DNA of 64,000 bases, taken from Saccostrea cucullata (Eukaryota). Position numbers: made by a program. Location of the stretch: contig NW_026933663.1 in assembly GCF_032062105.1 (NCBI RefSeq), positions 62,001-126,000 of the forward strand, written 5' to 3'. Of this stretch, positions 53,701 through 59,700 are shown piece after piece. Within the stretch, counting starts at the first letter, position 1, and every line of letters begins with the position of its first letter.

Positions 53701-56700
53701 ATTCATTCAATTTTTTTTACTTAGCGGTTATCATGGTAATTACAGTAAGTTTTTTTTAATTCCATGCTGTGTTAAAAGTTTACGTTGATCTTTTAAAAAC
53801 TAATGTTTACATTCACGACAGGTTTTATTTCGTAGGAAACATTGATCGCGAATATAGTGAAAATTAAAATCAGCGAGATGATTTGTCACTCTAAAATATA
53901 TATATATATTTTTTTATCACAAAAAGAAACCTTGACTCGAGGGACACGAGTCGTCAAGGGGCCGGGCTATGACCAAAGTAAACTGTCCGCAGTGGAGGGC
54001 AACTACATCGGTACCATATTACGTGTAGACTTCGATGAGGATGCCAAACCAATACTTTGTATGTTTACAACCAAAAGGGGGAATTATAAAAAACAGAGAG
54101 CGGTCCGTGCTCCGAGTGAAGATATTACAGGTAAATGTATTGTTCAGTGTAATTTGTCTAATTCGGATGTTGTCTAGCTATTCCGAAATTTTGTCTGATA
54201 TGCCATTCAATTCTAATCCCTTTTAGTAATTTTCAATTTTTTTTATATGTTATCTAATTCCATATGTTGTCTGATCTGTCCAATTTCCTTGGAATCAAAA
54301 GTTGCTGGATAAGACATATTTTACTGCATTTTCTTTTTTGATCATGTTGAATAATAAGTTTGAATGCATTTTTGTGAGTTCTTTTTTTGCATTTAATTGT
54401 TTCAAATTATCATATATGTGCCAACGATAAAGTAAAAGATTGTTTCGCAATGCTTTTGTTTTGTATTTTCTATTTTTATATCCATTTTTTCAGCATTTAA
54501 AAAGAGATTCCAAATCAAAGATTACAGAGAGGAAAAAGATGTTAATTTTGTGGAGGTTTATTGGGACAATGGAAAGAAGGAGTATTGTGTTATAGGACCT
54601 GAGTTCTTTGAACTTCAATTATATGAATGTAATCGTAAGTTTAAAATGTCATTTAACAAATTACCTATAAAATAATGTATCCTATTTTAGCTAGGCACAA
54701 TGTCATTCAATTATTTTTACGCCAGAGATAAAACAATCCACTTTATTCTTAAAGTCTAGCTAGGTGACTATATATAATTTCAGGTAGTACATATTTATGT
54801 TTTATAGGTTAATCTTTTGATTTTATAGGTAACTACATTGCTACAATAGTTTCCTATAAATTTAAATTCTTTTCATTATTTCTACATGATGTAGTAATGT
54901 AATTTCATAGATGTGATTAAAACGGTTACAACAAAAATCTACCTAAATGGGCATGTTTCTGGCTGCAAATTGACACAGTTTGTATTTTAATTCAATACAG
55001 AAATAATGTATGTTTTACATTTATTCCTCTGATCAAATATTTATCCCCTTATTCGAAGGAGAGGGGTATACTGTTTTACCTTTGTTTTACCTTTATGTGA
55101 CTGTTAGGGTGTGTGTATGTGTGCGTGAGAGGTGTCTCTGTGTGTGTCTGCAACAATTTTTTTCGTCATTCGTCGCAGTATTTTCAGCAACTGCTCATCG
55201 TACATGCTTAAAATTTTTAGCACACTCTTTCGTGATGCATGCCATATGGTGGTATTCATTTTCCTTGAATCTGACTTCAACTTCTTGTTCATCTTTGCTT
55301 ATGTCTCTTTCTTGCATAACAGATGTTTCGTCGCAGTTTTTCCAGCAACTCTTCATTGCAGATGCTTGCTCTGTCCATAACTGAACTTGTGTATATTGCG
55401 TATATGAGAGTGTAAATTATCATCAGAGAGGGTATAACAAGTGAGCATTGGTTCAATGACTCACAGACTTCTTGTTTTATTTGTTTTGCTTCTATGAAAT
55501 ATATATTTTTTCTTATACAAAATGTACACATTTTTACCCATTATTTTAAAATAACTGGCAGTTATCAGAGATGACGACATCCAGTGTGACGGTTGTAAAG
55601 AGTACCCCCTACATGGAATCCGCTGGACGTGCATCACGTGCAATTCCACAAATCTGTGCACCTCATGCTACATGACAGATAAGGAAAACAGTAATCACAT
55701 ATATAAAAGAATGCTCACGAAGGGCCTGAACGGGTGTGTAAAAATCAATGCTTTATTTATTAATATTTACATTTGCATATATTTTTTCTCTCAGATGAAC
55801 CAATTGAAGAGAAATAATGTTCAATATTCTGTATGAACTCATTAGCTTGATCGAAGCACAGAGCGAGATGATATCTTGTGTACATATTTTTGGCACCATT
55901 TCGGTGAAAAAAGCGATGAAAAGATAAAAAAATAAACATGTGCATATTTTTCAAACAATTGTTTTTAAATACATCTTTTGATGTGAAGATTATTTATAGA
56001 TAAACAGCATCTTGGCCAATAAAGCTTTTCTGAATGCAAAGATGGGTTCATTTATTTAGAATTTATCAATTTCAAAACCAGGGTCAAAAGTTTAATTCCC
56101 CTTTGTAAAAATTCTGTTCTTAAACCTTGGAGGATTTAAAACATTTTATCCATCAAAATCTGGTTTTAAAACATAACCAAATTTTCAAATTGCAAGAAAA
56201 TGGATAAATAAACAACAAAAAAGCAATATATCAAAATATTGAAAACCTCTTACTAAAGTATGATTTTTTCCTTTGCTATCGCATTAGAGCTGGTTATTAA
56301 ATGACCGTTTTCACTGTTATGAATATGAAAACTGTTATGAATTTTTGAAATAATAATCCATATCTTTAACTTTTATATGATTTTTTGTTTAAGTCTTGAC
56401 ATGCCAAGTCGATTTCGAAGTGCAAAAAATGGTAAAAGGAAAGAAGTTCGAGGTATTATAGTTGGTAACAAGGTTGATTTGCACAAGGAAAATACGCAAG
56501 GTAAACCTCCTTCACACTTTTACATTTTTTTTTTTTGGAATAAAAATTTTTTACTTCTGTCATCGTAGAAAGTTTCATGTGCATTTAATTTCGCTGTTTC
56601 GAGAGAAACAATATTCTTTATAATATGGGATTTAATATTGATCATTATTTCTGTTTTAATGTAATTCAAAATTTCTTTTTTCCAGCGTAGTATAAATCAA

Positions 56701-59700
56701 CGCAAAGTAAGCTGTCACCAATGTTCTCCGTGGAACTGCAAACGTTAAACAAAATATGCAGCAATCTATTACACTACATTTTCAATATATTTTGCTTTGT
56801 TTGTCAATATTTTAGGCACAGTGGTAGGATTTGTGAAAGGAAATGTATATAGATACATATTTCAAGAAGCAGAAAATCCCGAAAAGGAGATAGATTCTAA
56901 AACTATTAGGAAAAATTATAAGGATGCCAAAGAAATTAGAATTCGTCTACCTGAGAAAATGCCAAACGATATTCTTCCTCCACTCACCAAAGGTAAAATC
57001 AGGGGTTTTGAAATTAAAAGTGAATAAAAACATTCTGTAAGCATGAAAAAAGATAATATGGGTGAATTAGGTGCCTTTGAACAGGTATACATAATATACC
57101 AGTATTCATTAAACAATAAGTAAAATAAAGATTGCATTGACGCCATCTCAATATAGGTATCTTTTCACATTTTTTCCAAGACATGATAGAGAAATTACCT
57201 GAAATCAGAGTCATTATGCAGCTTGAAGGCAAGGAATTTGTAGCGGGAACTGTGGTGTCATACAAGGAAACAGACGATGATGTAAATTGTATATTTCCAA
57301 CAAACTTTGACGTAAAATACACCAATCCCATCAGAATCTCAAATTTTAACCCTGATAAATAGTTATTATAATAAGATTTATTCTATCGCTTGAAATATCA
57401 AGATAAATTCATTTTCTTCACAAAAATTTTGCATGAAAAAATACATTTATATGTATAAGAATCTTAAGTTATTTGGATAATAATCTTTCTTTTTTTAAAT
57501 ATTAAACAGAAGAGCAATTTGAAGATCAGAATTCACTGGGATGCAAAGAGGGATTTGTGCAAAAAGAAATTTTACAACGTTTCAAAACATTCAAAGGATA
57601 CGAAAGAACACAATGCTCTGTATCTTTTTGAGTATGGTAATGAATTATTTCAGTTTCTTTATTAATTCCAAAGATAGTACAGGACCGTGATCTGAAAAAA
57701 TTAGTTTGTTGATCAATTCTGATGATATCATCAAAGCTTAAAGCAGTTCTGTCATTAGATTTCTTGAAATTTTAAGGCAGCTTGCATAATTTGTTATACT
57801 TACTATTCTGGCCCGAGTCAGAAATTGTAAACGGGTTTGCAAAATGATTAATAAATTTTTTTTAAAGATAAGGCAGCTCAGATATTGCTCTCTCAGTTTC
57901 TATATGAAGTGTTAGTTTTGCATATTTATATGGATTAAGATTTATTTGCAGGAGTTTTGGAAAAAGATGAATGTACAGAATGCAGTAAGCCACCGACCAC
58001 TCATCTGAACGGGGCAGAGATAAAGTCTGATTCGCGCATCAAAGGATTACTGTGGAAATGTAATATATGCACATTACATATATGCACTATGTGTTACATC
58101 AGAGGAAAGCATGAATGTGGAGGGAAGCTTGAATGGGTGTCCAAACACTTCAAGTTAGTCATTTTTTGGTTTTATAAGTGTTTACAGTTTAAATAAAAAA
58201 CAACAATAAAACTTAAGTATTAAATAAGTCTAGATCTTATCGAATACATCACATGACGTTTCATACATATTTGATGTAGCGGTTGTTTCAACATTTTAGA
58301 TTTACAGGAAATCTCAGCAACCTCTCTGAAGTGAATACTAATTTGCATGTCTTTGAAGAATGGGACAGAGTCCAAGGCATGGACTGGCAGGATAGGCGTT
58401 CTTTGTTTTCTGCTTCTTCAAAACAAACACGTAAGATTTTACAGCAGATTAATTTTAAAGGACATTTTACAGAAGATTAATATTAACCCGAAAGGACATA
58501 TTTTTATTATTTCCCCAAACTTGACAAAGAACACACTGCAGGTGTGACCGGTCGGCAGGGGATGCTCACTCTTCAATGGCACCTGACCCCATCTCTGATG
58601 TTTTGGATGTCTGTGTTTGCTCTGATCCTGTTTTGTGTTATCAAATGGACTTTCTTCTCGTTATCTCCATATATTTTATATTCAAAATTTAGTAGTTTTA
58701 AAGTAATTAATATATCCTCTTCTTACATCAAGGCAAGGCAAACAAAAACTTCAATGTTATAAAAGAGCGGTAAATTCTTTTTAGGTTATCTTGTTGATGC
58801 AGAGATTCATAGATGTTTATACCATTGCGCTGTCCTTCTACAAAACCAGGATGGAGAAATTTTTCTACGAGACATTTCTGAAATGATGCTTCAAAAAAGT
58901 CAGACCAACGTTAAATCAGCAACATTCATCTATCAAGATCATCTGCCAATCATAGGAGAAGGTTATAATTAGCTTAAAATAATTGATTAAACATTATAAA
59001 AATCTTTCATTCTAATAGCACTAAATATTGAGTGACGTTTTTTTTTTTTGGTGTATAAAATGCGTTTCTTTTAGATTTACCATCATTATTAAAAAATGTC
59101 TAAGCCAAAAACCCCTCATTATATCCAATTTAGATTAATAAAAATGTAACTATTCTAAATTGTTTCAATATTGTCTCTTTTGATTATTTTATACTTAATA
59201 TATTTGTTATTTGAATTTTCTTGGGATTTTCAAAATGTGTTCTCGCATAAAAATTAACTTTTCAGGCTTTCACACTATAGTGTTAAATAATGAAAAAAAA
59301 ATCTTTAAAATTTCTTCAACCAATGATTCAATTTATAGATGAATTGGAACATAAGGTGGCAAATATAGAGATAGAAGCCAGACATCAGGTGAGCAAAAAA
59401 TCAGCTTTGTTTATTTTGAGTTGATACATCTTTTTATCGTATGTGATATTCCAAACATTTTTTTCTTCCAATTCCCTTTGACTATTGAAACACTGGAAAT
59501 GCTGTTTAAAAAAAAAATATTTCTCTTTTTAAAACTTTAACTTAAATGCTCTTACTTTAATTCAGAAAAGTCAGGTTGAAATTTGGAAAAATAGAAACTC
59601 TGTGGTGAATATAGAGACAGAAGCACAGTATCAGGTAAGAAAACTTATGCCTTTTTCTATGGTTGGATTGTTAAAAAATATCTTCTCCGCCTTTCATTTT

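What the first reader, a model, noticed from the sequence alone, without database searches (positions are those of the whole stretch)
53927..58961. Hidden gene with a tandemly doubled Mind-bomb MZM module and no E3 machinery in view
Seen: manual splicing gives MIB/HERC2 (with a ~45-aa insert) - ZZ - MIB/HERC2-like - MIB/HERC2-like - ZZ (with a ~13-aa insert) - MIB/HERC2-like ending YQDHLPIIG. About 180 aa follow with no ankyrin repeats or RING. Known: in Mind bomb a single MZM binds substrate tails (Notch ligands) and is followed by REP, ANK and RING domains. Inference: a fast-evolving bivalent substrate-binding adaptor or decoy, possibly immune-related. The first ZZ appears to have lost a His ligand (DKENSNH).
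Basis: partly seen in the sequence, partly recalled or inferred. Interest (0 to 1): 0.65.

Follow-up and report, generated by a model that had tools for sequence, protein, structure and literature searches.

The report
Oyster gene with two Mind-bomb modules
An oyster gene derived from the Mind bomb ubiquitin-ligase family appears to encode two substrate-binding modules in a row and no visible ligase part, a layout that also exists, unstudied, in predicted snail and thrips proteins.

Summary
The gene is real. Exons 1-7 (53214-57281, + strand) match a 338-aa annotated protein of the oyster Saccostrea echinata at 68-92% identity. That ortholog's best solved relative is the Mind bomb 1 MZM region. 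The first MIB/HERC2 domain with its large insert, the first ZZ finger and its lost His ligand are confirmed.

The second module (my exons 7-11, 57181-58972) is only partly confirmed. Its ZZ finger with a 14-residue insert and the closing motif YQDHLPIIGE are significant. Its two MIB/HERC2-like domains match only weakly, though at the expected profile positions. No database protein contains it.

No ANK, REP or RING lies on the + strand up to 64000.

The doubled MZM is not unique. 12 of 15 relatives mapped carry it, with a RING, CARD or SH2 domain or nothing after it.

Most likely this is a divergent, possibly ligase-less, bivalent tail binder. Interest is moderate.

The parts
53214..53352 (+). 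Exon 1 (coding start uncertain); lies upstream of the finding's start
   Evidence: P0001 residues 2-29 match 53268-53351 at 78.6%. The ORF is open from the ATG at 53214. The donor GT follows 53352 and leaves phase 1. The window has AAG where S. echinata has its start Met. An acceptor-like AG before 53268 leaves an upstream 5' exon possible.
53927..54130 (+). Exon 2: N-half of MIB/HERC2 domain 1 plus the first part of the insert
   Evidence: tblastn with P0001 78.8%, E=8e-29. hhalign score 27.0, q5-34 against profile 1-29, 0 of 35 shuffles reach it. My HMM gives rank 3 of 2949 ORFs. Phase 1 in, phase 1 out.
54494..54634 (+). Exon 3: rest of the insert plus C-half of MIB/HERC2 domain 1
   Evidence: tblastn with P0001 83%. 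My HMM gives rank 1 of 2949 ORFs, E=0.0017. hhalign score 30.1, 0 of 35 shuffles reach it.
55562..55733 (+). Exon 4: ZZ finger 1, with Glu in place of the first His ligand (DKENSNH)
   Evidence: Pfam ZZ E=4.8e-10. My ZZ HMM E=7.9e-17. P0001 87.7%. The His-to-Glu change is seen against MIB1 and HERC2 and in A1.
56394..56500 (+). Exon 5: linker and start of MIB/HERC2-like domain 2
   Evidence: P0001 91.7%. The ortholog's RGIIVGSKV aligns with MIB1 RGIFAGARV at the start of MIB1's second domain. The exon alone is not significant against profiles.
56816..56992 (+). Exon 6: rest of domain 2, ending in a degenerate module-end motif (ILPPLTK)
   Evidence: P0001 80%. A1 places LPPLT under the family's DHLPxLG motif. 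Not significant alone: 5 of 35 shuffles reach its score.
57181..57281 (+). Exon 7: N-half of MIB/HERC2-like domain 3 (start of module 2)
   Evidence: P0001 covers it, and the P0001 match then runs on into the window's intron. hhalign q15-33 against profile 16-34, the expected place, but score 10.9 with 1 of 35 shuffles reaching it. My HMM E=6.5.
57510..57636 (+). Exon 8 (inferred): C-half of domain 3 (IRIHWDA)
   Evidence: Canonical AG/GT, phase 0 in and phase 1 out, open. hhalign q5-11 against profile 39-45, score 11.3 against a shuffle maximum of 11.2. GC 0.34 against introns of 0.22 and 0.30. No homologue evidence.
57952..58153 (+). Exon 9 (inferred): ZZ finger 2, with about 14 extra residues after the first CxxC and a longer loop between the two His
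   Evidence: My ZZ HMM E=2.3e-5, rank 2 of 2949 ORFs. Position-specific HMMs give 1.6e-8 and 3.2e-8 among 120 ORFs of the gene. tblastn hits from about 50 relatives, E from 5.5e-5 to 0.01. No Pfam ZZ hit. No database protein holds it.
58300..58430 (+). Exon 10 (inferred): linker plus N-half of domain 4 (WDRVQGMDWQ)
   Evidence: Phase 2 in and phase 1 out, canonical sites, GC 0.41. hhalign q17-29 against profile 3-15, the expected place, but 2 of 35 shuffles reach its score.
58785..58972 (+). Exon 11 (inferred): C-half of domain 4, module-end motif YQDHLPIIGE, then GYN and the stop TAG at 58970-58972. Alternatively a weak donor after 58961.
   Evidence: hhalign score 32.3, 0 of 35 shuffles reach it. 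My tail HMM gives rank 2 of 2949 ORFs. tblastn with bivalve MIB2-like proteins matches SGGFYYKDHLPVLGE, E=0.05-0.13. The stop is read.
58986..58991 (+). ATTAAA, a possible polyadenylation signal 14 nt after the stop
   Evidence: Read. It is weak evidence in DNA of about 30% G+C.

Best explanation
The locus is a lineage-specific, strongly diverged offshoot of the Mind bomb family in an oyster. By my reading it has 11 exons (53214-58972, + strand) and encodes about 562 residues. The protein has a short N-terminal stretch, then two tandem MZM modules (MIB/HERC2 - ZZ - MIB/HERC2), and it stops four residues after the second module's closing motif. In this reading it has no REP, ANK or RING domain.

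In MIB1 and MIB2 the MZM is the unit that grips short linear stretches of partner proteins. The most likely role here is therefore a non-catalytic, two-handed binder. It would either bridge two partners or compete with RING-bearing Mind bomb paralogues for their substrates.

Shown:
- The gene exists.
- Module 1 is of MZM type.
- A second ZZ finger and a second module-end motif lie downstream in the right order.
- No ligase domain lies on the + strand up to position 64000.

Inferred:
- The four junctions that join exons 7 to 11.
- The stop at 58970.
- The absence of a ligase part in the real mRNA.
- The function.
For: Ortholog and family:
- The ortholog P0001 covers exons 1-7.
- P0001 matches MIB1 MZM-REP (4xi6) by sequence, E=3.3e-15.
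- The P0001 model matches 4xi6 by fold: Foldseek E=1.2e-7, 234 columns.
- The ESM Atlas first hit is a MIB2 cluster, score 0.90.

Module 2:
- ZZ2 and the tail motif are significant against window-wide controls.
- Exons 7, 8 and 10 align at the expected profile positions.
- All 10 junctions use GT-AG with compatible phases, and every exon is open.
- Exons 8-11 have 0.34-0.41 G+C, and each exceeds both its flanking introns (0.22-0.34). Confirmed exons 2-7 have 0.31-0.47.
- Both modules are phase 1-1 blocks, with the closing intron at the same place after the LPxxxx motif.
- P0001 ends in the middle of domain 3 by reading into the homologous intron. Half a barrel domain implies more exons.

C-terminal end:
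- No ANK, REP or RING in 75 downstream ORFs.
- None by tblastn with 18 named relatives.
- None by a RING pattern scan.
- The donor after 58961 (GTTATA) is the weakest in the gene.

Architecture and function:
- The same six-domain order occurs in 12 of 15 relatives mapped.
- The MZM binds the ligand N-box (PMC11887331, passages read).
- The MIB2 MZM is necessary and sufficient for RIPK1 binding (PMC5912950, passages read).
Against: - No transcript data were available.
- No database protein of 126 residues or more contains the ZZ2 exon.
- The S. echinata RefSeq model stops before module 2.
- M2, M3 and M4 are not significant by Pfam, by my HMMs or by hhalign when taken exon by exon.
- I chose the exon borders of module 2 so that the phases fit. 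Their consistency is therefore not an independent test.
- An extra in-phase exon (58542-58634) is also possible.
- The antisense strand of 57400-59000 also holds ORFs of 60-81 residues, so ORF length proves nothing.
- The two 'MZM-MZM only' snail models, P0019 and P0157, end in tails that look like intron read-through. They may be truncated forms of RING-bearing genes, and the same could hold here.
- The P0001 model is of low confidence: pLDDT 59.9, pTM 0.44, TM to 4xi6 only 0.23.
Confidence: 0.5

Rival explanations
1. It is a complete E3 ligase of the doubled-MZM kind seen in snails (MZM-MZM-REP-RING). The mRNA would splice from the donor after 58961 to REP and RING exons that lie beyond position 64000. 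The window simply cuts the gene.
For: - 5 of the 12 doubled-MZM relatives carry a C-terminal RING, and most also carry a REP (SH3_15) domain right after the second module.
- A GT sits exactly at the module-end position that is an intron in module 1.
- The 'RING-less' snail models look truncated.
- Interspersed repeats and a reverse-transcriptase zinc-finger fragment fill parts of 59.5-64 kb. They could have stretched an intron.
Against: - No REP, ANK or RING signal in 5 kb downstream, while the gene's other introns are 146-927 nt.
- The donor GTTATA is the weakest of the gene.
- An in-frame stop comes three codons later, followed by ATTAAA.
Confidence: 0.25
2. Only module 1 is made. The product is a short single-MZM protein like the 338-aa S. 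echinata model. Exons 8-11 are the decaying remains of a former second module, unspliced or non-functional.
For: - The only annotated ortholog ends after exon 7 by intron read-through.
- The ZZ2 exon is in no database protein.
- M3 and M4 have lost most family signal, including the Trp of the WDNG motif in M4.
- ZZ2 carries two insertions.
Against: - A protein that ends in half a beta-barrel domain is unlikely to be the main product.
- Exons 8-11 keep open frames, canonical splice sites, exon-like G+C, all eight putative zinc ligands of ZZ2 and a well-kept end motif.
Confidence: 0.2
3. The second module is a chance pattern in AT-rich DNA and the reader's splicing is an over-reading.
For: - Long ORFs occur on both strands here.
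- Three of the five module-2 exons are not individually significant.
Against: - ZZ2 ranks 2 of 2949 ORFs, directly after ZZ1.
- The tail motif ranks 2 of 2949 ORFs and beats all 35 shuffles by a wide margin.
- Both lie on the same strand, in the expected order, within 1 kb downstream of a confirmed exon.
Confidence: 0.03

Closest known systems
Mind bomb 1 / Mind bomb 2 E3 ligases (MZM-REP-ANK-RING); solved MZM-REP of MIB1, PDB 4xi6, 4xi7, 4xib
   Same: - Module 1 is an MZM. The ortholog aligns with MIB1 residues 39-151 at E=3.3e-15, and 4xi6 is the top fold match.
- Bivalve MIB2-like proteins share the module-end motif.
   Different: - Two MZM modules instead of one.
- No REP, ANK or RING within the window.
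- An insert of about 45-50 residues in domain 1.
- One His ligand of ZZ1 replaced by Glu.
- Two insertions in ZZ2.
- The MIB/HERC2 domains are too diverged for Pfam.
Doubled-MZM predicted proteins of freshwater snails (Biomphalaria, Bulinus, Lymnaea, Physella; annotated 'MIB2-like', 'mib1', 'mib2' or 'uncharacterized') and of a thrips (P0166)
   Same: - The same order, M-ZZ-M-M-ZZ-M, in 12 of 15 proteins mapped.
- No ANK domain in their precomputed Pfam lists.
- Two of them (P0019, 542 aa; P0157, 551 aa) have nothing after the second module and are about as long as my 562-aa reading.
   Different: - Their domains are canonical: Pfam MIB_HERC2 E from 1e-57 to 1e-90.
- Most continue into REP plus RING, one into CARD_2 and one into SH2.
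- Identity to the oyster gene is low.
- Profile scores could not tell whether the doubling is shared by descent.
HERC2, KCMF1, p62 and other ZZ-finger degron or tail readers
   Same: The ZZ fold. The HERC2 ZZ matches at E=2e-7 by sequence and at rmsd 1.2-1.3 over about 50 residues by fold.
   Different: Those ZZ fingers stand alone or in other contexts. Here each ZZ is flanked by MIB/HERC2-type domains.

Membership tests
Mind bomb E3 ligases (MIB1/MIB2) | N-terminal MZM module (MIB/HERC2 - ZZ - MIB/HERC2) | tested here: met
   Met through the ortholog P0001: MIB1 4xi6 E=3.3e-15 over query 114-229, and Foldseek top hit 4xi6. Exons 2, 3 and 4 are each significant on their own. The second MIB/HERC2 domain of the module is supported only at its start.
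Mind bomb E3 ligases (MIB1/MIB2) | REP (Mind bomb SH3 repeat, PF18346) after the MZM | tested here: not met
   No SH3_15 hit in 75 + strand ORFs from 58960 to 64000. No tblastn hit from 18 REP-bearing relatives. Sequence beyond 64000 was not seen.
Mind bomb E3 ligases (MIB1/MIB2) | Ankyrin repeat region | tested here: not met
   No Ank family hit. No tblastn hit. This holds within the window only.
Mind bomb E3 ligases (MIB1/MIB2) | C-terminal RING finger(s) | tested here: not met
   There are no Pfam RING hits downstream. The only RING pattern in all 2949 ORFs belongs to the unrelated gene at 5616-6779. This holds within the window only.
ZZ zinc finger (PF00569) | Profile match above the curated cut-off | tested here: met
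   ZZ1 scores 39.5 bits against a cut-off of 21.4. ZZ2 has no Pfam hit at E<=1 but scores E=2.3e-5 with a family-built HMM.
ZZ zinc finger (PF00569) | Full set of eight zinc ligands (six Cys, two His) | tested here: not met
   ZZ1 has Glu in place of the first His, in the window and in P0001. About 22 of 28 sequences in A1 keep that His, by my count. ZZ2 keeps all eight candidate ligands, with longer loops. Zinc binding itself cannot be tested here.
MIB/HERC2 domain (PF06701) | Profile match | tested here: inconclusive
   Pfam gives no hit at E<=1 for any exon or for P0001. Domain 1 is significant with my HMM and with hhalign. Domains 2-4 give only sub-threshold matches at the expected positions. 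A whole-domain test would need joined exons, and that step was left out.
Doubled-MZM proteins (snails, thrips) | Six domains in the order M-ZZ-M-M-ZZ-M on one polypeptide | tested here: inconclusive
   The order on the DNA is as expected, and the phases allow one mRNA. Nothing shows that exons 8-11 are spliced to exons 1-7.

The most novel reading that the evidence does not exclude
Oysters carry a ligase-less double-MZM protein. Its two modules have been remodelled by a helical insert in domain 1, a changed zinc site in ZZ1 and new loops in ZZ2. This lets them grip two different partner tails at once. The protein would then act as a decoy or bridge that tunes Mind bomb-type ubiquitination in death-domain, RIPK-like or Notch-ligand signalling. 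The MZM-MZM cassette would be a mobile binding unit that lophotrochozoans and insects have repeatedly fused to RING, CARD, SH2 or nothing.
Probability: 0.15. Interest if true: 0.55.

Novelty: new variant of a known kind. Interest (0 to 1): 0.35.

Why it matters
Mind bomb ligases are studied almost only in their canonical form with a single MZM. This locus and its snail and thrips relatives show that the MZM can be doubled. They also show it attached to quite different output domains: RING, CARD_2, SH2 or none.

If the oyster protein truly lacks a ligase part, it would be a natural dominant-negative or scaffold form of a substrate-recognition module. That would help in finding what MZM modules bind outside Notch signalling, in an animal group with very large innate-immune gene expansions.

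It is also an annotation point. The sister-species gene model appears to stop in the middle of a domain.

Tried and rejected
- Pfam on single exons and on the ortholog gave no MIB_HERC2 hit. I therefore built family HMMs from database relatives and ran hhalign with shuffles.
- tblastx of the first half against the second half found no similarity beyond a weak ZZ match. A recent tandem duplication is rejected.
- Position-specific profiles (first against second module of the snail proteins) could not tell which module the oyster ZZ or M domains resemble. Whether the doubling is shared or independent stays open.
- A possible extra exon at 58542-58634 is phase-compatible, but it encodes a hydrophobic stretch and has a weak donor. 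I left it out of the model.
- A weak ZZ-like start at 61645-61764 (tblastn E=1.8, with a stop inside; ZZ HMM E=2.3) is taken as chance.
- Tandem and dispersed repeat searches of 52-64 kb found nothing that explains the gene. blastn found short interspersed repeats downstream.
- Three literature searches listed no paper on doubled MZM modules or on this gene. Supplements were not consulted.
- Genome contigs holds only bacteria and archaea and was not used.
- A joined exon model was neither searched nor folded.

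
Full report
SETTING. The window holds 64 kb of AT-rich DNA (about 0.28-0.40 G+C, no N). It carries intron-poor animal genes: a RING/B-box ORF, C2H2 zinc-finger ORFs and a metallophosphatase ORF. The translation of 53929-54129 finds one database protein, P0001. This is 'uncharacterized protein LOC133198250 [Saccostrea echinata]', 338 aa, at 78% identity. The window is therefore from an oyster close to, but not identical with, that species. It is not human.

THE GENE AND MODULE 1.
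- tblastn of P0001 against the window gives seven colinear + strand pieces at 68-92% identity. They lie at 53268-53351, 53923-54120, 54493-54633, 55564-55734, 56395-56502, 56806-57000 and 57120-57296.
- Reading the DNA gives canonical GT-AG borders and matching phases for exons 1-7.
- Pfam sees only the ZZ finger in the single exons and in P0001. It reports no MIB_HERC2 even at E<=1.
- P0001's best solved relative is still the MZM-REP fragment of Mind bomb 1 (4xi6), at E=3.3e-15. The match runs from the C-half of the first MIB/HERC2 domain, through the ZZ, into the start of the second domain. A separate weak match covers the N-half.
- An AlphaFold model of P0001 built on a 28-sequence alignment is of low overall confidence: pLDDT 59.9, pTM 0.44. 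Its best parts are domain 1 and the ZZ finger.
- Its top Foldseek hits are 4xi6 and 4xi7, at E about 1e-7 over 233-234 columns. TM is only 0.23, so this supports kinship but not the geometry.
- The ESM Atlas also places P0001 next to MIB2 clusters.
- Alignment A1 shows an insert of about 45-50 residues inside domain 1, shared by P0001 and P0003.
- A1 also shows Glu where the family usually has the first His ligand of the ZZ finger. About 22 of 28 sequences keep that His, by my count.
- Exon by exon, domain 1 is significant. hhalign scores are 27.0 for exon 2 and 30.1 for exon 3, against shuffle maxima of 11.6 and 12.8. The two exons rank 3 and 1 of 2949 window ORFs with my MIB/HERC2 HMM.
- Domain 2 is not significant on its own.

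MODULE 2.
- Nothing in the databases covers it. The ZZ2 exon found no protein of 126 residues or more.
- The two halves of the locus are not similar to each other.
- By reading frames and splice sites I get four more exons: 57510-57636, 57952-58153, 58300-58430 and 58785-58972.
- All four are open, flanked by AG/GT and phase-compatible. Their G+C is 0.34-0.41, and each exceeds both its flanking introns (0.22-0.34).
- I chose these borders so that the phases fit. Their consistency is suggestive but is no independent test.
- Independent support comes from profiles built from database relatives.
  - ZZ2 ranks 2 of 2949 ORFs, directly behind ZZ1, at E=2.3e-5.
  - About 50 relatives hit ZZ2 by tblastn.
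  - The stretch ending in YQDHLPIIGE ranks 2 of 2949 with a profile of the family's module end.
  - That same stretch scores 32.3 in hhalign against a shuffle maximum of 14.0.
  - It matches the end of the MZM of bivalve MIB2-like proteins.
- Exons 7, 8 and 10 align to the expected parts of the MIB/HERC2 profile, but with scores that shuffles nearly reach or reach.
- ZZ2 has 25 residues between its second and third Cys, against 11 in ZZ1. It also has a longer loop between the two His.
- Both modules are phase 1-1 exon blocks whose closing intron sits at the same place after the LPxxxx motif. That is what an old block duplication would leave.
- P0001 ends inside domain 3 by running into the sequence homologous to the window's intron 7. 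This suggests that the S. echinata model is incomplete.

WHAT FOLLOWS.
- If it is not used, the frame stops three codons later, at TAG 58970-58972, with ATTAAA at 58986-58991. That gives about 562 residues.
- I found no support for a further ~180 aa.
- The 75 + strand ORFs of 20 residues or more between 58960 and 64000 give no ANK, RING or SH3_15 hit.
- tblastn with 18 named REP-, ANK- or RING-bearing relatives gives only a chance-level hit there.
- The only RING pattern in the window belongs to the gene at 5616-6779.
- Parts of the downstream region are interspersed repeats, and a reverse-transcriptase zinc-finger fragment lies at the window's end.

COMPARISON WITH WHAT IS KNOWN.
- A search of 1.84 billion representatives with P0001 found 592 relatives at E<=0.001.
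- Of the 25 I scanned with Pfam, 7 have four MIB_HERC2 domains plus two ZZ fingers.
- With names and my own domain mapping, 12 of 15 proteins show M-ZZ-M-M-ZZ-M.
- They come from Biomphalaria, Bulinus, Lymnaea, Physella and a thrips. Their annotations read MIB2-like, mib1, mib2 or uncharacterized.
- What follows the doubled module varies:
  - 5 have a C-terminal RING.
  - 3 records have REP only or nothing after the doubled module; two of them are marked 'partial'.
  - 1 has CARD_2.
  - 1 has SH2.
  - 2 (P0019, P0157) have nothing more, but their last residues look like intron read-through.
- The doubled MZM is therefore an existing, though apparently undescribed, architecture. Three full-text searches listed no paper on it.
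- Published work shows what an MZM does. It binds the N-box of the Notch ligands' tails (PMC11887331, passages read).
- In MIB2 the MZM is necessary and sufficient to bind RIPK1, and this depends on a zinc-coordinating Cys of the ZZ fold (PMC5912950, passages read).

VERDICT.
- The interpretation as a bivalent, ligase-less binder is the best available reading, at a confidence of about 0.5.
- Two serious rivals remain: a RING end beyond the window, and a second module that is no longer used.

STEPS LEFT OUT OR NOT POSSIBLE.
- No eukaryotic genome collection or transcript data could be searched.

Noticed in passing
window 5616-6779 (+): Single 388-aa ORF with a RING finger (several RING models at E about 1e-7) and a B-box. 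It looks like an intronless TRIM-like gene.
   Followed up: no
window 12438-14510 (-), 11535-11765 (-), 10865-11281 (-): A 691-aa ORF with many C2H2 zinc fingers (E=4.8e-36), and two more C2H2-bearing ORFs just downstream on the same strand.
   Followed up: no
window 32728-33654 (+): A 309-aa ORF with a calcineurin-like phosphoesterase domain (Metallophos, E=2e-15).
   Followed up: no
window 63554-64000 (-): An ORF that runs off the window end matches the zinc-binding region of reverse transcriptases (zf-RVT, E=7e-6, just under the cut-off). It is probably a retroelement fragment.
   Followed up: no
window 59556-62889, against 1831-2467, 7160-7270, 17998-18989 and 60215-60263: Short interspersed repeats (72-84% identity, 46-191 nt) link the region downstream of the gene with other parts of the window, mostly in inverted orientation.
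   Followed up: partly
P0010 (1719 aa) and P0018 (1283 aa), database relatives: Proteins with a Death domain, a NACHT domain, and then 17 or 8 ZZ fingers in a row. They are NLR-like proteins that use ZZ arrays where repeats usually sit. Their organisms are unknown, because cluster names could not be fetched.
   Followed up: no
P0158 (Biomphalaria glabrata) and P0166 (Frankliniella occidentalis): A doubled MZM fused to a CARD_2 domain in P0158. A doubled MZM fused to an SH2 domain, followed by what looks like the start of a kinase domain, in P0166. The ESM Atlas also lists a mollusc cluster that combines MIB_HERC2, Ank and PARP.
   Followed up: partly
window 55007-55384 (+), inside intron 3: A 125-aa ORF rich in Cys/Val from a TG-rich stretch. 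A 41-nt direct repeat lies at 55169-55209 and 55327-55367. This is probably an inserted repeat, which would explain why this is the gene's longest intron (927 nt).
   Followed up: no
window 61645-61764 (+): A weak ZZ-like beginning (CxxC ... RW) with a stop inside the match (tblastn E=1.8, ZZ HMM E=2.3). It is either chance or the remains of a third module.
   Followed up: partly
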